From a virus (taxonomy: Duplodnaviria; Heunggongvirae; Uroviricota; Caudoviricetes), in IMG/VR virus record IMGVR_UViG_3300012346_000137, positions 48,731 through 112,730 of that record: a stretch of 64,000 bases of DNA, one strand, 5' to 3'. Made by a program: the position numbers and the translations under genes. Shown here one piece after another: positions 3,001 to 62,012 of this stretch. Each line of letters opens with the position of its first letter. The stretch's first letter is position 1. The notes beneath the pieces are model-generated. The model was not told the origin of the DNA. It did not search any database and saw only the letters and a program-made list of their open reading frames with translations.

Positions 3001-4715
3001 GGTATAGCATGTCTATATCCTGTAACAAAAGGAACCATTCTTCTATATCTAAGTTGCTCTTTTGTAACACCATAGTTCTTAAGGATTTGCTCATACTCAT
3101 TCATTTGAGCATTCCATTCTTTAGTTTTGTATCCAGGAACATCATCGTTCATAGACTTATTGATGTTAGAAAACTTCCAATCAAGGATGTCCACCTTTAC
3201 ACTACCATCTTTTTGAGGCTCTATAGCAATAAAGTCCATAGTGGATGCAAGCATACCTGGTACGTTCTTGTTAACAACTTTCTTTTCAATAAGGAATCTA
3301 GTTCCAGATTCATATGAATTAATTAACTCTTTAGCAAAGTTTCGTAACTTTTCTTGAATTATTGGATCAAGATTAGAATCTATTTCAATCTCAGTAGGAT
3401 TAGCCAATCTGTATCCATTCTTATCGATAAGATTTTTTCCAATAAACTGTTCAAGGAATGCGTGACCTTCAGATCCCCAATCCTTCTTCATATCATCTAA
3501 CTTCTTCTGAAGATCTGATCTTCTATCAGGAGTTTTACCTTTAACTTTTTCAGTTACAGACTTTGCAATATCTGTAACTTTATCATACACGTAATGTCTT
3601 TTCTTAACAAGATTACCTGCTGAATCATACACAGCATTATAAGGTCCACCTATCTTGTCATGCTCTGACATAATGGTGTTGAATATTTGATCTACCTTAG
3701 TATTATTCTTTACTTGATAATACACTGCAGTTTCTTTGATGTTGTCTAATGTAAGATCAATGTTATCGCTAACAATAAGATCTGCTGTGCTTTTGAAGAT
3801 GTCTATATTAGTTTTGCTATAAATACCTCTAACAAAATCAAGTATTGTATCCCACCATTGTCTAATCAATGATCTGTCTTTCTCTTCCATTAATTCTGGA
3901 AACTCTGTAGATCCCTCACTCTTATTAACAATCAATTCAGCAATCAACTTATCTACAGCCTCCTTCTTAATCTTACGAATGTCAGGTTTGCCATTAGCTA
4001 GTTGATATGCTTTCTTTTTACCATAGGTATCAAGTACTTGTTTATAAATCTTGAATCTATCTATCTTAGAGATCATTGCAGTGATTGCCTGAGGATTAGT
4101 TTGCTCCACCATAGCAGTTGCAATGTGAACATATTCCTCTGTAAGTGCTTGATCCTCAACACCTTCAGCAAGAGCAATAACAGCTTTCACTGCTTCGCCA
4201 GTCTTCTGAATGTGAGATAAACCCTGTACATCTTCATCAACTGTCAGCCCAGCATCTCTTACATACTGATCTAAGTTTTCAATAGAGATACCCATCTTAG
4301 CTGCAGCAGTCTTGATAATATCCAATGTAGCCTTAGCTGCTTTAGATGCCTTAACTCCTTGCACTTGAAACTTTACATCAGAGTCTCCTTGTTGATTGTA
4401 TTCTCCAAAGCTTAACATAGAGTCATACATTCCTCTATCTTTTCTAACCTGATCTATTGCATCAAAAGCTTCCATGTTAGGAACTGCTTTTATCCACGAA
4501 TCACTAGTGTTAGGATTAACTGTTTCCTCTGTAAACAAAGGACCTTTATCTACACCATAAGCTTCCTTAGCTTGTTGAGTCAAGGTCTTCACCTCATCTC
4601 TAAAAGAAACAAGCTTAGTAATCCTGTTATTACTCTTTATAATTTCTTTATCAAGTAGAACTTCTCTACTATTAAGATTTGATTCTTTGTGCTTTAAGTT
4701 ACATCCTATTGCCAT
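1..4715 (-). CDS. giant virion (cargo/ejection-like) protein, 3'-truncated by window edge (>=1571 aa)
   Basis: ATG at 4715 on the minus strand (MAIGCNLKHKES...). The frame stays open to position 1: I hand-translated ~300 codons at the N-terminus and ~25 codons near 1030-1100, all protein-like with no stops. Only short ORFs (<145 aa) lie on the opposite strand. It overlaps the stop of the upstream 4176-aa gene by 11 nt, which is typical operon packing. Confidence 0.6.
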   Translation of the reverse strand, partial: MAIGCNLKHKESNLNSREVLLDKEIIKSNNRITKLVSFRDEVKTLTQQAKEAYGVDKGPLFTEETVNPNTSDSWIKAVPNMEAFDAIDQVRKDRGMYDSMLSFGEYNQQGDSDVKFQVQGVKASKAAKATLDIIKTAAAKMGISIENLDQYVRDAGLTVDEDVQGLSHIQKTGEAVKAVIALAEGVEDQALTEEYVHIATAMVEQTNPQAITAMISKIDRFKIYKQVLDTYGKKKAYQLANGKPDIRKIKKEAVDKLIAELIVNKSEGSTEFPELMEEKDRSLIRQWWDTILDFVRGIYSKTNIDIFKSTADLIVSDNIDLTLDNIKETAVYYQVKNNTKVDQIFNTIMSEHDKIGGPYNAVYDSAGNLVKKRHYVYDKVTDIAKSVTEKVKGKTPDRRSDLQKKLDDMKKDWGSEGHAFLEQFIGKNLIDKNGYRLANPTEIEIDSNLDPIIQEKLRNFAKELINSYESGTRFLIEKKVVNKNVPGMLASTMDFIAIEPQKDGSVKVDILDWKFSNINKSMNDDVPGYKTKEWNAQMNEYEQILKNYGVTKEQLRYRRMVPFVTGYRHAIPGDPKSPLVLVTLEVGSPNNLEKNSIFTLPVPSLSEKTGNEEVDRLISGLRAQWEKINGIRVSPENRHLKKKQLEEISSAIRNLQVRLNFGPITAMAETFFKNAGAAITDIEGIDYEKLSPAETRDKLGKLIEYKNSATKFLDIDQVFLSAYPKDKMTGEAKVILEKLEHNAVLAERLVKKINNLQGSYAANLVIKQGLASTEKEALSAEREIKGLVKTFYEGLQLPAKIIKAASRLVLESRNLVNINVGRKLDQFQPILVALEKEAAAQGKSAFDLIGKASDKGLNLIKKIDPQFWKDYSKAIEAKDKEFLIKNLDMDKYNQLVEEAVEKQIAEIERTEYDISDINNNNAIRDQKIKNVRNSLDITRSTFNGFTDFTFKQLFKKAMLEEKHLSNEYKQLVKNETAFKAWKFFMDLNERAYKAGYLDEQGMSFFPLVEATLLQKIEQSKQGVLGDLGNFFKDLYTTTEDESSSLSKIDPETGELERRIPRYFTRSSKPVEALSKDLNKVASLWVNALYSYENRQNLENTLLTLAAVEANKGSIIVDGDKVVFDGDTPRVNRDKNDNAKLMNAIVDDYLYGQTEDTGSLGNVQLGNLVTKLNKDKELAEKRVTNFKKGIKNADVLVRALAVGLKPLIATANSFGNAFQAYINAGGNYEFNEFLSNTGKVVTGAISQEKKAIMHLIVPLNEDISNEKMRETAKKIGIGKWLSTWSFSDVMMSTNAFPEKRFQLANALSFIDNSMIKDGKIVNIRQEIAREDRAVKYKMTPAERKALEKTFDERVAKAKEESNLEKAVKIEGDTITIEGVSDEELAKFRAIITEYNRDLNGQMSQDNKAAFARDTVFKSFMMFKTWIPKQVILRTKDISKNALTGEWEYGRGRVFVKAIFHLGAKNITKMRDIITGSEEGLRILDEMLQVKRDEYFRKTGEVLTITNEEFYDMMRTELENQVKELKLLVGIVAVVAAAGAAIPDDDDSLDDVTRNRYKYLMKAMNKIQDELSF

Positions 4716-43481: not shown

Positions 43482-44012
43482 CTAATCTAATTTGTTAAGA
43501 AAATTGTCATTTATAAGTCTATAGCTTCTCATTGGAGCTATGTCTGTAAGTGTAACTTGTTGAACATCAACTCCCCACTTACGTGCTTCCACCCTAACTT
43601 TTTTAGTCAATGTGTTATCTACCTCAGGATCTATACACTCTTCTAACGTCATTGACATAATAACGTTCTTTATTATACTCTGAGACATATCTGATAGAGC
43701 ATCCTGTGCGTCATACACCTCTAATAAGAATATCTTAACATCTGCTATCTTGTATTTGACAATACCTTTCACCACAATGTTTTGTCTATCTTGTGTATAT
43801 AAAGACTGAGCATCTAAACTAAGGGTAGTCACCACAACATGGTGATCTATCACTTCATCAAACAATGGAATCTTGAAGTGTAAGCCAGGCTCAAGAACGC
43901 TGTAGAATTTTCCACATCTCAGCAACACTGCTCCTTCGTAGTCTCTAACAATAATAACTGGGGTTAGTTGCAACCACCAATTAGTTACTATTTCAATTAG
44001 TTTATCAAACAT
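43482..44012 (-). CDS. hypothetical head-module protein (176 aa)
   Basis: ORF. Confidence 0.4.
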   Translation of the reverse strand: MFDKLIEIVTNWWLQLTPVIIVRDYEGAVLLRCGKFYSVLEPGLHFKIPLFDEVIDHHVVVTTLSLDAQSLYTQDRQNIVVKGIVKYKIADVKIFLLEVYDAQDALSDMSQSIIKNVIMSMTLEECIDPEVDNTLTKKVRVEARKWGVDVQQVTLTDIAPMRSYRLINDNFLNKLD

Positions 44013-49450: not shown

Positions 49451-49710
49451 TATATTAAATCATTTAAGTCATCGTCTGTGAGTTTATCATCAAAGAACTC
49501 ATCAGTTAGGTCTATTGGAGAATCTTCAAAGTTCTTTCTACCTTCTTCTGTCATATAGTCTTTAGAGAAACTAATTGCCACTCTATCCTGTTCCTCATCT
49601 GGAACACCTGTGATGTCAATATAATCAACACCTTTATTATATAGCTCCACTAATACATCTATTAACTTGTCTAATGGAAGCTTCTTTAGCATTACTGTTT
49701 CTCTACCCAT
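49450..49710 (-). CDS. hypothetical acidic protein (86 aa)
   Basis: ORF. Confidence 0.35.
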   Translation of the reverse strand: MGRETVMLKKLPLDKLIDVLVELYNKGVDYIDITGVPDEEQDRVAISFSKDYMTEEGRKNFEDSPIDLTDEFFDDKLTDDDLNDLI

Positions 49711-50002
49711 GGTCTGCAGCTTGTTTTAATTGTTCCTCAATTTCTTGGTTTTCTAAAACAGCCACCCATTTGTCAATAGGGCAGCTACAAGATAGGCACT
49801 TGGTCTTTGCAGACAGGGTGCATCCACAATTAGTACAATGATCGTCTGGACGATTTGTCTTGTGGTACATAGAATGGTGTTCACATTCTAAGCAGATCTT
49901 TGTTCTTTCCTTCCCAACCTCAATGATCTGAGCTTTTAACTCTGCTGGAGGCACAAGGTTGTTTCTCCAACCCTCATATATTTGGGCGAAATTAATCTTC
50001 AT
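49703..50002 (-). CDS. Cys-rich zinc-finger protein (99 aa)
   Basis: CLECEHH...HCTNCGC...CLSCSC, giving at least 8 Cys/His ligands. Confidence 0.4.
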   Translation of the reverse strand: MKINFAQIYEGWRNNLVPPAELKAQIIEVGKERTKICLECEHHSMYHKTNRPDDHCTNCGCTLSAKTKCLSCSCPIDKWVAVLENQEIEEQLKQAADHG

Positions 50003-58399: not shown

Positions 58400-58429
58400 T
58401 ATACAAGCTAGGAGAAATCCTAGCTATAT

Positions 58430-58812
58430 GGGGGTGCTTTGGATTTGATCCATATGAGATGGATAGTATCACATGCAGGGCTGGTAGAGCCTAAACATTC
58501 TATCGAACAATAACTGTAGAATTATCTACAATGGACTTCGAAGGTCTTATGGCTTTCGTTGGTGGTGAGTTAGAGATAGCTGCATAATCTGTGGGTGGCA
58601 ACAACCCACATCCTTTAAAGAAAGTTGCACGAGTTTTCTCTGTTATGTCAAAACAGAGTGGTGGTAGATAGTAGAGACCCTACGATCCCAATCTACTGAT
58701 CAGATTTTAGATGAGCTTTGTAACTGGCTTATCATCTAAAGACAGATCTAAGCATGTAAGAATGGTATTATTTATACTTATGGAGACGAGGGTTCGACTC
58801 CCTCCACCTCCA
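58430..58812 (+). ncRNA. ssrA: transfer-messenger RNA (tmRNA, ssrA), phage-encoded
   Basis: The 5' end (GGGGGUGCUUUGGAUUUGAUCC) parallels E. coli GGGGCUGAUUCUGGAUUCGAC. The 3' end (GGAGACGAGGGUUCGACUCCCUCCACCUCCA) parallels GGACGCGGGUUCAACUCCCGCCAGCUCCA. The 7-bp acceptor stem has G32:U at position 3:70, the AlaRS identity element. T-arm GAGGG-TTCGACT-CCCTC. Helix 2a pairs TCCATA (58447-58452) with TATGGA (58779-58784). An internal tag ORF reads ...GLMAFVGGELEIAA-TAA (stop at 58585-58587), followed by a GTGGGT...ACCCAC helix. CCA is not encoded. Confidence 0.8.
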
Positions 58813-58874
58813 CGTCCACAAATAAATTTGGTCATCTCCACAAAATACCATATATTTGTATAAAATATAAACAT

Positions 58875-59375
58875 ATGAGAAAAAGGAAGATGACCAATGT
58901 TATTTGTTATAACTGTGGTATAGAGTTTGATAAACCAGACTCTGAAGCAAAAAGAAACATAGAATTAGGTAGAAGAAACTTCTGTTCTAGATCTTGTGTT
59001 GGTAAAACAATGATAGGTAATGTATCAGGAGATAAAAGATATACAATTCCTCCTATTAGAACTAAAGACCAATACTCTGCATTTAGAGAGTTTATTAGAA
59101 GAGTTAAGAACAGACACCATGATTATAATATAGATATTGAGTATCTATATGAGTTATGGAATGCTCAAGAAGGCAAATGTGTATATACAGGCATACCTAT
59201 GGTTCTTCCAAATGGAAAACCAGGTAATATGTTAACTGCATCTCTTGATAGAATTGATTCATCATTAGGTTATGTAAAAGGAAATGTACAGTTTATTCTT
59301 ACACCTATTAACTATATGAAGAATACTATGACTCATGAACAAACAATTGAACTTATTAATTTAATTAAAACTTAG
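58875..59375 (+). CDS. HNH-family endonuclease with N-terminal CxxC zinc ribbon (166 aa)
   Basis: CYNCG...CSRSC zinc ribbon. The C-terminus (GKCVYTGIPMV...ASLDRIDSSLGYVKGNVQFI) matches the phage HNH (HNH_3-like) motif. Confidence 0.5.
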   Translation: MRKRKMTNVICYNCGIEFDKPDSEAKRNIELGRRNFCSRSCVGKTMIGNVSGDKRYTIPPIRTKDQYSAFREFIRRVKNRHHDYNIDIEYLYELWNAQEGKCVYTGIPMVLPNGKPGNMLTASLDRIDSSLGYVKGNVQFILTPINYMKNTMTHEQTIELINLIKT

Positions 59376-59377
59376 TT

Positions 59378-59560
59378 ATGAAATTAACAACAAAACAGAA
59401 AACATTTCTATCTGCTCTATCTATAGCAATAGGAGCAGCATTAGTATTTATTGCATTTGAATATGTCCCAAAAACAATGGGAAAGGTATTCTTAATCGTA
59501 TGGGCTTTTATTATAGTTAAATGGGTTAATGATTTAATCAAACATAATCAAAACAATTAG
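59378..59560 (+). CDS. small membrane protein (60 aa)
   Basis: One or two TM helices. Confidence 0.35.
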   Translation: MKLTTKQKTFLSALSIAIGAALVFIAFEYVPKTMGKVFLIVWAFIIVKWVNDLIKHNQNN

Positions 59561-60059: not shown

Positions 60060-62012
60060 ATGGATGTACTCATCTATGACATAGAGACTATGCAAGAACT
60101 ATTTCTTGTAGGACTATATATACCAGACCAAGATAAGTATTTTGAATTCGAGGTGAGTAAGAACAAGAATCAATTAGATACATTCTTCTCATTTGCTGAA
60201 GAGCACAAAGACTATTACTGGGTGGGATATAACAACTTACGCTTTGACTCTCAGGTTGTTGAGTGGGTCATGCGTAACTATGAACAGTGGCACGAGCTCA
60301 CTGCTTTAGATATAACAGCTAAGATTGCTCAGAAAGCTGCAGATGTTATTGATGATGCTAACTATGATGTCTTTCCTGAATACAGAGAAGAGAATCTATC
60401 TCTCAAGCAAATAGATTTGTTCAAGGTGAATCACTATGATAATAAGAATCGTAGAGTGAGCTTGAAGAGACTAGAGTTTGAGATGGATCTTGAGAACATT
60501 GAAGAGATGCCTATTCATCACACCAAAACATTTATGACTGATGAAGAAATTCAGCTTACTAAAGATTATTGTCGTAATGATGTTATGGCTACTTTCAATT
60601 TCTATAACATTACTACTGGAAATACTGATCATCCTTTATATAAAGGAAATAATCAGTTAGAACTAAGACAGGATATATACGATGAGTTTGGTATTCCTTG
60701 TCTAAACTATTCTGATAGTAAGATTGGTGATGAGATGATCAAGAAGTATTACTGTGAAGAGAAGAAGATTGATTACAAAGAGCTACCAAGAAAAGGATTC
60801 TTTAGAAAGGTGGTGCATGTAAAAGATTGTATTGCTCCTTACATAGACTTCAGAACATTCAAGCTAAAAGAGTTCTTCATAAAGGTGAGAAGAGAGACAT
60901 TAACACAAAAGGACGATTTCAAAGAATCAATTGAATTTTATGGCAACATCTACACATTTGCAAAAGGTGGGCTTCATACAGAAAATAAACCAAAGATATT
61001 TGAAGCTGATGATGATAATATTATTGTTGATTGGGACGTATCTAGCTACTATCCTGCTATTATTATTAATAATGGTAGATATCCTAAGCACTTGGGTCCT
61101 GAGTTTCTGCGTGGCTATAAAACTATGTTCGACAAGAGATTGGAACTCAAGCCCTTGGCTAAGAAAGATAGAAAGATTAAAGGAATTGTTGGGGCACTCA
61201 AGCTCGCAGTTAACTCTGTATATGGTAAATCTAGTGACATGCAGTCTTGGATCTATGACAGACAGCTCACAATGTTCACAACCCTCACAGGAGAATTAAG
61301 CTTACTTATGCTCATTGAAGCATATGAATTGGAAGGTATACGAGTAATATCAGCTAATACAGATGGTGTTACAATCATGCTAGATAAGTCACTAGTTGAC
61401 AAAATGCATGAGATTAACAAATGGTGGATGGAATTAACCAGCTATGAGTTAGAACGTACTGACTATTCTAAGATTATATTCTCTACAGTAAATGACTATT
61501 TAGCAATTAAAACAGATGGTGAAATTAAAAAGAAAGGTGACTTCCTTACTGATTTCGAGCTTCATAAGAATAAGTCAGCTCGTATTGTCCCTATTGCTCT
61601 CGAGCATTACTTTGTTAACAATACTCCTGTGCATACCACTATTACCAATCATACGAATCTATACGATTTTTGTCTCAGACAAAAAGCAAGCAAAGACTTC
61701 CACTATGAAGGAATAGCTGATGGTAAGACCACAGTGTATAACAAACTTATTAGGTATTATGTAAGCAACACAGGTGAAAAACTATTAAAGGTCAAGAATC
61801 CTGATTGCGACACCAATGCTGCAGATGTATCACAAGTTGAAGCAGGTGAATGGGTAATGACAGTTTGTAACTATCTACCCAAAGACTCTTCTACAGCTAA
61901 TGTAAACCACGCTTACTATATAGAGAAAGCAGAGAACATTATACACAAGATACAACTAGAAGGCAAGAAAAGAAAGATAGTAGTTAACCCTAATCAAACA
62001 AGTTTATTCTAA
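60060..62012 (+). CDS. polB: family B DNA polymerase, compact phi29-like type (650 aa)
   Basis: Exo I motif YDIET, and Exo III-like YCRNDVMA. Pol motif A DVSSYYPAII, motif B KLAVNSVYGK (Kx3NSxYG) and motif C SANTDGV, all in canonical order. Confidence 0.75.
   Translation: MDVLIYDIETMQELFLVGLYIPDQDKYFEFEVSKNKNQLDTFFSFAEEHKDYYWVGYNNLRFDSQVVEWVMRNYEQWHELTALDITAKIAQKAADVIDDANYDVFPEYREENLSLKQIDLFKVNHYDNKNRRVSLKRLEFEMDLENIEEMPIHHTKTFMTDEEIQLTKDYCRNDVMATFNFYNITTGNTDHPLYKGNNQLELRQDIYDEFGIPCLNYSDSKIGDEMIKKYYCEEKKIDYKELPRKGFFRKVVHVKDCIAPYIDFRTFKLKEFFIKVRRETLTQKDDFKESIEFYGNIYTFAKGGLHTENKPKIFEADDDNIIVDWDVSSYYPAIIINNGRYPKHLGPEFLRGYKTMFDKRLELKPLAKKDRKIKGIVGALKLAVNSVYGKSSDMQSWIYDRQLTMFTTLTGELSLLMLIEAYELEGIRVISANTDGVTIMLDKSLVDKMHEINKWWMELTSYELERTDYSKIIFSTVNDYLAIKTDGEIKKKGDFLTDFELHKNKSARIVPIALEHYFVNNTPVHTTITNHTNLYDFCLRQKASKDFHYEGIADGKTTVYNKLIRYYVSNTGEKLLKVKNPDCDTNAADVSQVEAGEWVMTVCNYLPKDSSTANVNHAYYIEKAENIIHKIQLEGKKRKIVVNPNQTSLF

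What the first reader, a model, noticed from the sequence alone, without database searches (positions are those of the whole stretch)
58430..58812. Phage-encoded tmRNA (ssrA) with a non-canonical tag ending ...ELEIAA
A complete tmRNA sits among the early/replication genes. It has a tRNA-like domain, the G3:U70 alanine identity pair, helix 2a, a tag reading frame with stop codon, and a post-stop helix. Canonical bacterial tags end in ...YALAA, whereas this one ends GGELEIAA. A phage tmRNA could rescue ribosomes stalled on cleaved mRNAs during host shutoff or after attack by defence RNases or toxins. Its altered tag might still mark products for ClpXP (AA-COOH is retained) or might deliberately avoid SspB-assisted degradation.
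Basis: partly seen in the sequence, partly recalled or inferred. Interest (0 to 1): 0.75.

Follow-up and report, generated by a model that had tools for sequence, protein, structure and literature searches.

The report
Phage tmRNA with a virus-only tag
A crAss-like phage carries a complete ribosome-rescue RNA (tmRNA) whose long peptide tag belongs to a family seen in hundreds of viral and metagenomic contigs, absent from 185,579 bacterial and archaeal species genomes, and apparently swapped as a module between unrelated phages.

Summary
Window 58430-58812 (+) is a complete one-piece tmRNA (ARAGORN; Rfam RF00023, 85.6 bits, E 9e-32). The acceptor stem with G3:U70, T-arm, helix 2, PK1, frame-setting UA, 23-codon tag, UAA stop and helix 5 are all present, and most are supported by covariation. 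Pseudoknots 2-4 could not be shown.

Phage tmRNAs are already known, so the gene itself is ordinary. The tag is what is new.
- VELSTMDFEGLMAFVGGELEIAA belongs to a family found in 57 viral and at least 120 metagenome contigs.
- A tag pattern and a tag-independent backbone pattern both gave zero hits in 185,579 bacterial/archaeal species genomes.
- The tag is under purifying selection as a peptide (unbiased pN/pS 0.31-0.35, against 1.2-2.1 in shifted frames).
- It is mosaic. Close relatives carry the same RNA backbone with a different N-terminal tag half (VKSQSERV...), while unrelated myophage-like contigs carry the same tag on a different backbone.

The gene is accessory in its lineage, and an HNH endonuclease gene is inserted just after it. 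No phage SmpB was found. The most likely function is ribosome rescue using host factors, with the tag giving a phage-specific fate to rescued proteins. The Bacteroides host assumption is unsupported.

The parts
58430..58812 (+). Complete one-piece tmRNA (ssrA) gene, from G1 to the discriminator A. CCA is not encoded.
   Evidence: ARAGORN; Rfam RF00023 85.6 bits, E 9e-32, full length; MFE z = -3.67. Homology with relative L115 starts about 5 nt before the 5' end and stops about 12 nt after the 3' end.
58430..58436 (+). Acceptor stem 5' strand GGGGGUG. It pairs with 58805-58811 (CACCUCC), including G3:U70.
   Evidence: Across 93 family sequences pair 5 covaries (G:C 56, A:U 25, C:G about 10), while G3:U70 and discriminator A are unchanged in every sequence that could be scored.
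58449..58454 (+). Helix 2a 5' strand UCCAUA. It pairs with 58779-58784 (UAUGGA).
   Evidence: 93.6% of cells paired, and 4 of 6 pairs change on both sides across 50 sequences. 3 covarying pairs and 0 broken within the subfamily.
58478..58505 (+). Pseudoknot 1. Stem 1 is GGGC (58478-58481) with GCCU (58489-58492). Stem 2 is UGGUAGA (58482-58488) with UCUAUCG (58499-58505).
   Evidence: An H-type pseudoknot at the same position in 29 of 32 distinct family segments, with stem-2 sequences entirely different between subgroups.
58511..58512 (+). Frame-setting U(-5) A(-4), equivalent to E. coli U85/A86, four nucleotides before the resume codon.
   Evidence: UA at -5/-4 in 88 of 93 family members. The rule comes from PMC2481249.
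58516..58587 (+). Tag reading frame: GUA resume codon, 23 codons VELSTMDFEGLMAFVGGELEIAA, UAA stop at 58585-58587.
   Evidence: Peptide-level purifying selection: pN/pS 0.35 (tag-independent sample) and 0.31 (codons 17-23), against 1.2-2.1 in shifted frames.
58590..58610 (+). Helix 5 just after the stop codon: UGUGGGU, loop GGCAACA, ACCCACA.
   Evidence: 2 compensatory pairs and 0 broken against L115/L197. Covarying versions across the family.
58611..58750 (+). Variable post-tag region where PK2-4 would lie. Hairpins at 58638-58643/58653-58658, 58663-58669/58691-58697 and 58706-58714/58732-58740. The last is absent in L197/L204 and replaced in L115.
   Evidence: The first hairpin changes on both sides in 5 of 6 pairs across the family, with 72.8% of cells paired. 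Pseudoknot tests are inconclusive.
58788..58804 (+). T-arm: GAGGG, loop UUCGACU, CCCUC.
   Evidence: 99.6% of cells paired and 4 of 5 pairs change on both sides. 13 different complementary versions in the family.
58406..58425 (+). 8-bp hairpin (AGCUAGGA-GAAA-UCCUAGCU) ending 4 nt before the tmRNA 5' end. Possibly a processing or transcript-end element.
   Evidence: L115 has a hairpin of different sequence at the same place. The role is inferred, not tested.
58827..59374 (+). Insertion of about 550 bp carrying a free-standing HNH/endonuclease VII-like homing endonuclease gene (ORF 58875-59375), immediately after the tmRNA 3' end.
   Evidence: PHROG 3322 endonuclease at 2.3e-23, plus HNH and Endo VII families. 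Absent in relatives L115 and L200, where the tmRNA abuts the homolog of ORF 59378-59560.

Best explanation
This is a working, phage-encoded one-piece tmRNA carried as an accessory early gene by an uncultivated crAss-like phage.

Inferred mechanism:
1. It is transcribed with the early/replication genes and cut out by host tRNA-processing enzymes.
2. Host enzymes add CCA, and host alanyl-tRNA synthetase charges it with alanine through G3:U70.
3. Host SmpB delivers it to ribosomes stalled on broken or stop-less mRNAs. No phage SmpB was found in the window.
4. Translation resumes at GUA, four nucleotides after the conserved A, and appends Ala + VELSTMDFEGLMAFVGGELEIAA before terminating at UAA. 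This frees the ribosome.

The tag has two modules. The C-terminal half (MAF...[DE]..[ILVM]AA) is shared by all these phage tmRNAs and looks like an ordinary protease degron. The N-terminal half (VELSTMxF[ED]..) is conserved as a peptide, found only in viral or metagenomic DNA, and exchanged between tmRNA backbones and between unrelated phage groups. The phage therefore probably does more than add rescue capacity during infection: it also sets the fate of rescued proteins through a phage-specific tag.

Shown here: gene identity, structural integrity, selection on the peptide, absence from cellular genomes, and mosaicism. Inferred: charging, SmpB dependence, tagging, proteolysis, and the benefit to the phage.
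For: Identity and integrity:
- ARAGORN and Rfam full-length hits and MFE z = -3.67.
- Covariation in the acceptor stem, T-arm, helix 2a, H5 and PK1.
- Formal count on 50 sequences: 79.7% of cells paired against 64.5% in shuffles, covariation score 0.386 against 0.150 (0 of 500 shuffles reach either value), and 35-50% paired in slid controls.
- G3:U70 and discriminator A unchanged in every sequence scored; UA at -5/-4 in 88 of 93 (rule from PMC2481249).
- Homology with relative L115 is confined to the RNA gene itself.

Translated tag:
- pN/pS 0.35 in a tag-independent sample and 0.31 in pattern-unconstrained codons, against 1.2-2.1 in shifted frames.
- Synonymous codon variety at conserved residues.

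Virus-only:
- Tag pattern: 57 viral contigs, at least 120 metagenome contigs, 0 in 185,579 species genomes.
- Tag-independent backbone pattern: 22 viral contigs, 0 genomes.
- 67 of 72 metagenome loci share neighbour genes with viral contigs.

Mosaic:
- Tag ORF identity: window-L036 0.82, window-L265 0.58. Post-tag region: window-L265 0.74, window-L036 0.56.
- Tag 5' half against VKSQ tags is at shuffle level (0.50-0.52), while the 3' half is 0.74-0.77.
- L314 has the window-type PK1 with the other tag.

Unrelated carriers: the window is crAss-like. The main group's neighbour genes resemble Melnitz/HTVC008M myophages, and its flanks share no proteins with the window beyond one small (99-aa) lineage core protein.
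Against: - There is no expression, charging or tagging data.
- No SmpB is encoded in the window, so function depends on compatibility with an unknown host's SmpB.
- Pseudoknots 2-4 could not be shown.
- The gene is dispensable for the lineage: only 6 of 57 close relatives with enough flank carry a tmRNA.
- Codons 1-5 are nearly invariant even at synonymous sites, so part of the conservation may act on the RNA and not the peptide.
- The 'virus-only' result rests on exact-pattern scans of one genome per species. A divergent bacterial relative would be missed.
- No partner protein for the N-terminal tag module was found. Only a few kb either side of each relative's tmRNA (at most 6 kb was compared) and 64 kb of the window were examined.
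Confidence: 0.72

Rival explanations
1. Rescue only. The phage tmRNA simply adds ribosome-rescue capacity, and the tag is a generic degron. The strong conservation of the tag region reflects RNA-level constraints around the resume codon (structure or SmpB/ribosome contacts), not a peptide function.
For: Codons 1-5 (GUA GAA UUA UCU ACA) are almost invariant even at third positions. They can form a small hairpin, GUAGA-AUUA-UCUAC, that contains the resume codon. In E. coli the tag sequence is not needed for tmRNA-dependent phage growth (PMC2481249).
Against: pN/pS stays well below 1 in tag-independent and unconstrained samples, while shifted frames give 1.2-2.1. Replacements are conservative (E/D, V/I, A/S). 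L343/L344 change the nucleotides of codons 1, 5 and 6 yet keep a similar peptide. The putative hairpin is not kept in register in L069.
Confidence: 0.13
2. Antagonist or decoy. The phage tmRNA competes with the host tmRNA for SmpB and stalled ribosomes, so that rescued products get a phage tag instead of the host tag. This would blunt a host response that depends on host trans-translation, or compensate when a defence nuclease damages host tmRNA, tRNA or mRNA.
For: The tag is absent from cellular genomes. The gene is accessory and patchy in the lineage, as counter-defence genes often are. In the myophage-like group the commonest upstream neighbours resemble the two halves of polynucleotide kinase/phosphatase RNA-repair enzymes.
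Against: All of this is circumstantial. No defence or anti-defence gene was identified next to the window's tmRNA. The polynucleotide-kinase-like neighbours are absent from the window and rest on weak PHROG matches.
Confidence: 0.1
3. Passenger or remnant. The gene is a recently captured host ssrA, or the phage half of an integration site in ssrA, with no function for the phage.
For: ssrA is a common prophage integration site, and fragments occur in phage genomes (PMC9004378). A mobile HNH gene sits next to it.
Against: The gene is complete, not a 3' fragment. No integrase was found among the window ORFs scanned. Helices covary and the tag is under purifying selection. No cellular genome carries the tag or the backbone. 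The gene is kept at the same site in diverged relatives.
Confidence: 0.03

Closest known systems
Bacterial one-piece tmRNA (SsrA, Rfam RF00023; E. coli is the model)
   Same: Full-length match to the model. It has the acceptor stem with G3:U70, discriminator A, T-arm, long helix 2, PK1, U-A frame-setting dinucleotide four nucleotides before the resume codon, tag ORF ending hydrophobic-Ala-Ala, stop codon and helix 5.
   Different: It is encoded by a lytic-looking phage. The tag is 23 aa instead of about 10 and starts with Val instead of Ala or Gly. The N-terminal half is conserved and was not found in any cellular genome scanned. PK2-4 are not demonstrable. No cognate smpB lies nearby.
Two-piece tmRNAs of aquatic myophages (Methylophilales phage Melnitz, Pelagibacter phage Mosig; PMC9004378)
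   Same: A complete tmRNA in a lytic phage with no integrase, placed among early genes. The published hypotheses are similar: maintain the hijacked translation machinery, or tag host proteins for recycling. The non-crAss carriers of the VELSTM tag have neighbour genes closest to Melnitz/HTVC008M.
   Different: Those RNAs are circularly permuted, have short alphaproteobacterial-type tags (ANDNVAFALAA in related contigs), and group with host-lineage tmRNAs. The window's is one-piece with a tag that has no cellular counterpart.
tmRNAs annotated in human-gut crAss-like phages (Suoliviridae: cr50_1, cr114_1, cr10_1) and Chryseobacterium phage MA9V-3
   Same: A tmRNA gene in a crAss-like or Bacteroidota phage, among small early genes on the same strand.
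   Different: Those match the permuted model RF04321 and have unrelated 13-17 aa tags (GNNFVTDYTAIGA, GNFYVTDYTRIAA, GNNFVTDYTQLAVA, GNVIDINKYVAKLEVAA). There is no sequence similarity beyond the T-arm and acceptor end.
tmRNAs of huge phages (Al-Shayeb et al. 2020, PMC7162821)
   Same: Phage-borne tmRNA, interpreted as rescue of stalled ribosomes.
   Different: There tmRNA is reported together with SmpB and many other translation genes in genomes above 200 kb. Here it is a solitary translation-related gene, with no tRNA or SmpB in 64 kb, in a lineage whose longest contigs are about 105-118 kb.

Membership tests
tmRNA, one-piece (Rfam RF00023) | Covariance-model score above the curated gathering threshold over the full model | tested here: met
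   85.6 bits against 47, E 9e-32, model positions 1-374 of 374. ARAGORN agrees.
tmRNA, one-piece (Rfam RF00023) | tRNA-like domain: 7-bp acceptor stem and T-arm with a GGUUCGA-type T-loop | tested here: met
   Coordinates. T-arm 99.6% paired with 4 of 5 pairs changing on both sides. Acceptor pair 5 covaries G:C / A:U / C:G.
tmRNA, one-piece (Rfam RF00023) | Alanine identity: G3:U70 wobble pair and discriminator A | tested here: met
   Present in the window and in every family sequence that could be scored. Actual charging was not tested.
tmRNA, one-piece (Rfam RF00023) | Long helix 2 joining the tRNA-like domain to the body | tested here: met
   The MFE fold pairs about 24-47 with 323-355. Helix 2a is 93.6% paired with 4 of 6 pairs changing on both sides.
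tmRNA, one-piece (Rfam RF00023) | Pseudoknot 1 upstream of the resume codon | tested here: met
   Window stems at 58478-58505. 29 of 32 distinct family segments form a PK at the same place with different stem-2 sequences.
tmRNA, one-piece (Rfam RF00023) | Frame-setting upstream sequence: conserved A four nucleotides before the resume codon, preceded by U | tested here: met
   ...AAUAACU|GUA in the window. UA at -5/-4 in 88 of 93. Rule from PMC2481249.
tmRNA, one-piece (Rfam RF00023) | Short tag ORF without a start codon, ending in hydrophobic-Ala-Ala, with an in-frame stop followed by helix 5 | tested here: met
   23 codons ending I-A-A, UAA stop, H5 3 nt later. H5 covaries. The tag is longer than usual.
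tmRNA, one-piece (Rfam RF00023) | Pseudoknots 2-4 between helix 5 and the 3' strand of helix 2 | tested here: inconclusive
   The region folds into three or four hairpins. H-type pseudoknot candidates were not clearly better than shuffles (fraction of shuffles at least as good: 0.04-0.95). Column covariation is unusable because the alignment there is poor. These pseudoknots are reported as replaceable in E. coli (PMC2481249).
tmRNA, one-piece (Rfam RF00023) | Works with SmpB; is aminoacylated; tags nascent chains | not testable with these tools
   No SmpB domain in any complete window ORF scanned, so a host SmpB would be needed. Activity needs experiments.
Permuted two-piece tmRNA (Rfam RF04321), as in gut Suoliviridae crAss-like phages | Gene order permuted (acceptor 3' piece first) and a match to the permuted model | tested here: not met
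   The window and its relatives match RF00023, not RF04321. The gut crAss and Chryseobacterium phage genes match RF04321.
ssrA-derived attP / integration-site fragment | Only the 3' part of ssrA is present, next to an integrase | tested here: not met
   The gene is full length. No integrase was found among the ORFs scanned. The neighbour is an HNH homing endonuclease that is absent in relatives.

The most novel reading that the evidence does not exclude
Phages maintain a private lineage of tmRNAs whose tags are built from exchangeable modules. A common C-terminal degron (..MAF..[DE]..[ILV]AA) is joined to one of at least two unrelated N-terminal peptides (VELSTMxF[ED].. or VKSQSERV..). The N-terminal module would be a binding motif for a specific host or phage factor. 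These phages would then reprogram what trans-translation does to rescued proteins, not merely supplement it, and the module would spread by recombination between unrelated phages (crAss-like and T4-like) that meet in the same communities.
Probability: 0.35. Interest if true: 0.8.

Novelty: new variant of a known kind. Interest (0 to 1): 0.6.

Why it matters
Why lytic phages carry tmRNAs is an open question. Published discussion goes no further than proposing that they maintain translation or recycle amino acids (PMC9004378, PMC7162821). If only ribosome release mattered, the tag could drift. Here the tag is conserved as a peptide, has no counterpart in the 185,579 cellular species genomes scanned, and appears to be moved as a module between RNA backbones and between unrelated phages. 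That points to the tag as the selected part and gives a concrete, short peptide to test by pull-downs, degradation assays and mass spectrometry. It also flags two practical issues. ARAGORN missed two of these genes (L200, L314). And tmRNA-based host assignment would be misleading for this family, because the RNA appears to move between phages and was not found in the cellular genomes scanned.

Tried and rejected
1. The first collection scan used the generic T-arm/acceptor 28-mer. It was unspecific, returning 85 loci that were mostly unrelated two-piece tmRNAs, but it revealed the tag family by accident.
2. blastn of the locus against 50,697 deposited phages gave no match. tblastn with both tag peptides also gave no match.
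3. The first pN/pS estimate (0.24) was partly circular, because the retrieval pattern fixed the amino acids of codons 1-16. I redid it on tag-independent samples and on unconstrained codons. The claim that Val1 and Met6 are invariant was withdrawn after L343/L344 (AEELSSF...).
4. Single-sequence pseudoknot-versus-shuffle tests for PK1-4 failed for PK1 because of over-strict loop limits, and were uninformative for PK2-4. PK1 was settled comparatively.
5. Column covariation in the post-tag region of the 61-sequence cluster recovered only one helix, because the alignment is poor.
6. MAFFT staggered the 5' G-run in the 50-sequence alignment. The acceptor stem was therefore left out of the formal pair count and assessed per sequence instead.
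7. I first thought the window's PK1 had been imported with the tag. I rejected this after L314 showed the same PK1 with the lineage's other tag.
8. I suspected the small Cys-rich protein at 49703-50002 was linked to the tmRNA. I rejected this for this lineage, because tmRNA-less relatives also have it.
9. The attP/remnant and captured-host-gene readings were rejected (see rival explanations).
10. Literature searches for the tag strings, 'phage-encoded tmRNA', and tmRNA with crAss-like or Crassvirales found no description of this family. The library covers open-access papers only.
Full report
**1. Is it there?**
Yes. ARAGORN finds one RNA gene in the 64-kb window, a tmRNA at 58430-58813 (+) with tag VELSTMDFEGLMAFVGGELEIAA*. 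Rfam's tmRNA model RF00023 matches 58430-58815 over its full length at 85.6 bits (gathering score 47, E 9e-32), and nothing else in the window reaches any family's threshold.

**2. What genome is it in?**
A crAss-like phage.
- The minus strand up to about 50 kb holds a 4176-aa ORF, a terminase, a portal and other large genes.
- Two ORFs match the Pfam crAss tail-ring families.
- Small plus-strand genes and a family-B DNA polymerase (60060-62012) follow.
- The terminase is only 39.8% identical to Leptolyngbya phage Lbo-JY46 and about 34% to Cellulophaga phages phi17:2/phi4:1. No deposited phage matches the tmRNA locus.
- The lineage is abundant in IMG/VR: 447 contigs encode a PolB relative, the best 80 at 73-81% identity, on contigs up to about 118 kb.

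**3. Anatomy**

| Element | Window coordinates |
|---|---|
| Acceptor stem GGGGGUG / CACCUCC, with G3:U70 | 58430-58436 / 58805-58811 |
| Discriminator A (CGU follows, so CCA must be added) | 58812 |
| Helix 2a | 58449-58454 / 58779-58784 |
| PK1 stem 1, GGGC / GCCU | 58478-58481 / 58489-58492 |
| PK1 stem 2, UGGUAGA / UCUAUCG | 58482-58488 / 58499-58505 |
| U(-5) A(-4) | 58511-58512 |
| GUA resume codon | 58516 |
| 23-codon tag | 58516-58584 |
| UAA stop | 58585-58587 |
| Helix 5 | 58590-58610 |
| T-arm | 58788-58804 |

The U-A position fits the E. coli rule that the frame is set four nucleotides after A86 (PMC2481249).

**4. A family, not a one-off.**
A generic T-arm scan happened to bring in viral contigs whose tmRNAs have homologous long tags, such as DVELSTMTFEDAMAFVGADYAVAA. 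A degenerate DNA pattern for the motif V-E-L-S-x-M-x-F-[ED]-x-x-M-[AS]-F-[VI]-G then found:
- 57 viral contigs, many of them 70-270 kb
- none in one genome for each of 185,579 bacterial and archaeal species

A second pattern that ignores the tag (5' tRNA-like end plus the pre-resume box ATCGAACAATAA) found 22 viral contigs and again no cellular genome. In all there are 93 distinct tmRNA sequences with 34 tag variants, all one-piece. Of the 72 metagenome loci, 67 share neighbour gene clusters with the IMG/VR viral contigs. No deposited phage carries the tag, and no searchable paper contains it.

**5. Is the RNA under selection as a tmRNA?**
Yes.
- Acceptor pair 5 switches G:C (56), A:U (25) and C:G (about 10), while G3:U70 and the discriminator A are the same in every sequence scored.
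- The T-arm exists in 13 complementary versions.
- UA sits at -5/-4 in 88 of 93 sequences.
- PK1 forms at the same place in 29 of 32 distinct segments, with entirely different stem-2 sequences: UGGUAGA/UCUAUCG, UGAAAC/GUUUCG, AAGCAU/AUGCUU, GAUGG/CCUAUC, GUAAU/AUUAC.
- In the formal count on 50 diverse sequences, 79.7% of cells are paired against 64.5% in shuffles, and the covariation score is 0.386 against 0.150. No shuffle out of 500 reaches either value, and slid controls give 35-50% and 0.05-0.11.
- Within the window's own subfamily, helix 2a, H5 and the T-arm change on both sides with no broken pairs.

Between H5 and helix 2 the window has hairpins. I could neither show nor exclude pseudoknots 2-4. 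That region varies from 133 to 195 nt in the family, and such pseudoknots are reported as replaceable in E. coli.

**6. Is the tag translated?**
The tag-coding stretch is as conserved as the tRNA-like domain and much more so than the post-tag region. My first pN/pS (0.24) was biased, because the retrieval pattern fixes amino acids but allows synonymous change. After correction:
- The tag-independent sample gives pN/pS 0.35, against 1.16 and 2.08 in the shifted frames.
- Codons 17-23 of the full set, never constrained by the pattern, give 0.31 against 1.4-2.0.
- Conserved residues use several codons (Gly16 GGT/GGC/GGA; Ala22 and Ala23 three codons each), and replacements are conservative.
- Two tag-independent members (L343, L344) read AEELSSFTFEDAMAFVGADYAVAA, so Val1 and Met6 are not strictly invariant.

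The ending [ILVM]-A-A is constant.

**7. Mosaic structure.** This is the main new point.
- Among 57 close PolB relatives with enough upstream sequence, six have a tmRNA. Five were called by ARAGORN, and L314 was found by BLAST and Rfam. In the five ARAGORN-called loci it lies about 1.2 kb upstream of PolB, as in the window.
- These six share the window's backbone but carry a different 27-aa tag, VKSQSERV[AE]EG..I[IL]A.[AI]FA..[VLY]A[VL]AA, or AKSKSERV... in L314.
- That tag occurs in only 12 viral contigs, nearly all from this same lineage (terminase about 85% identical).
- The VELSTM tag, in contrast, occurs on a different backbone in contigs that share no flanking proteins with the window beyond one small (99-aa) lineage core protein. 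Their commonest neighbour gene is closest to myophages Melnitz (41.5%) and HTVC008M (37.8%).

Segment identities, where values around 0.55 are what unrelated sequences give:

| Segment | Window vs L036 (myophage-type) | Window vs L265 (crAss-lineage) |
|---|---|---|
| Tag ORF | 0.82 | 0.58 |
| Post-tag region | 0.56 | 0.74 |

Splitting the tag at the shared ATGGCnTTC (M-A-F) core gives, against the VKSQ type:

| Tag half | Identity | Shuffle level |
|---|---|---|
| 5' half | 0.50-0.52 | 0.47-0.48 |
| 3' half | 0.74-0.77 | 0.55 |

All these phage tags therefore share a C-terminal module, and the N-terminal half comes in two unrelated forms. One of those forms is shared across backbones and across phage groups. 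L314 has the window-type PK1 with the other tag, so the foreign piece in the window is essentially the N-terminal tag half. The closest relative found, L200 (PolB region 90% identical in DNA), has a tmRNA at the same site that is only 76% identical and carries a third variant, VELSTMTFDDMMSFIGAEEAIAA. Recombination at this locus is the simplest explanation. The direction, import of VELSTM into the crAss-lineage backbone, is inferred from how common each tag is.

**8. Surroundings.**
- Homology between the window and L115 begins about 5 nt before G1 and ends about 12 nt after the 3' end. The upstream flanks are unrelated.
- Both have a hairpin of different sequence just upstream (58406-58425 in the window).
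- Downstream, the window has an insertion of about 550 bp (about 58827-59374) carrying an HNH/Endo VII-like gene. L115 and L200 lack it.
- No SmpB, tRNA, integrase or other translation gene was found in the window.

**9. What is already known.**
- Phage tmRNAs are documented in 402 of 18,146 phage genomes (PMC9004378) and in huge phages together with SmpB (PMC7162821).
- GenBank annotates tmRNAs in gut crAss-like Suoliviridae and in a Chryseobacterium phage. Those are permuted (RF04321) with unrelated short tags.

A tmRNA in a phage is therefore not new. New, as far as I could search, are the virus-restricted long tag family, the evidence that the peptide is under selection, and the modular exchange of the tag.

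**10. Verdict.**
This is a new variant of a known kind, of moderate to high interest. Function (Ala charging, host SmpB dependence, tagging, proteolysis, benefit to the phage) is inferred from the conserved anatomy and was not tested.

Noticed in passing
window 58827-59374 (ORF 58875-59375, +): A free-standing HNH/endonuclease VII-like homing endonuclease gene is inserted exactly between the tmRNA 3' end and the next gene. It is absent at this site in relatives L115 and L200. Homologs (40-50% identity) sit about 1-1.6 kb upstream of PolB in five other lineage members.
   Followed up: partly
window 58406-58425; L115 about 3645-3665 (minus strand): An 8-bp hairpin ends 4 nt before the tmRNA 5' end, and the relative L115 has a hairpin of different sequence at the same place. 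It may be a processing signal or an upstream-transcript end signal. The scan also flags it as terminator-like on the opposite strand.
   Followed up: partly
window 58516-58529: The first five tag codons (GUA GAA UUA UCU ACA) are almost invariant even at synonymous sites across the family. They can form a hairpin, GUAGA-AUUA-UCUAC, that contains the resume codon. This is unexplained, since structure around the resume codon is reported to be harmful in E. coli A86C mutants (PMC2481249).
   Followed up: partly
L108, L206 and about 25 other family loci, 0-2 kb upstream of the tmRNA: In the myophage-like carriers the commonest upstream neighbours are a 126-aa HAD-like protein and a 247-aa P-loop protein. 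They match PHROGs annotated as polynucleotide kinase (phosphatase and kinase halves), which may be an RNA-repair pair next to the tmRNA.
   Followed up: partly
L265, L268-L271, L314, L331-L342: A second long phage tag family, VKSQSERV[AE]EG..IIAMAFASE[VLY]A[VL]AA (26-27 aa), is restricted to the window's phage lineage.
   Followed up: partly
L200:4132-4535 (-); L314:821-1287 (+): ARAGORN failed to call two clear tmRNAs that BLAST, synteny and (for L314) Rfam at 83.3 bits identify. Surveys of phage tmRNAs based on ARAGORN alone will undercount them.
   Followed up: yes
window 49703-50002 (-); L009, L019, L029, L033, L057, L058, L067, L073, L077, L085: A 99-aa Cys-rich (zinc-ribbon-like) protein is a core gene of the window's lineage. 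A distant homolog lies 37-38 nt upstream of, and on the same strand as, the two-piece ANDNVAFALAA tmRNAs in 10 pelagimyophage-type contigs.
   Followed up: partly
L086 (375-502, 2372-2538), L087 (1176-1304, 2534-2701), L088 (655-781, 1634-1812): Gut Suoliviridae crAss-like phages carry Hatchet ribozymes and RAGATH-9/-22 RNAs within 0.3-2.6 kb upstream of their permuted tmRNA genes. The window has none of these.
   Followed up: no
L087 3058-3130; L086 3391-3462; L088 3274-3339: tRNA genes (tRNA-His GUG in L087) lie inside or overlap the span annotated as the permuted tmRNA in gut crAss-like phages. They seem to sit in or next to the segment between the two tmRNA pieces.
   Followed up: no
window 43482-44012 (-): An SPFH/Band 7 domain protein (Pfam PF01145, 1.7e-26) is encoded within the structural gene block between the portal gene and the capsid-region genes.
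   Followed up: no
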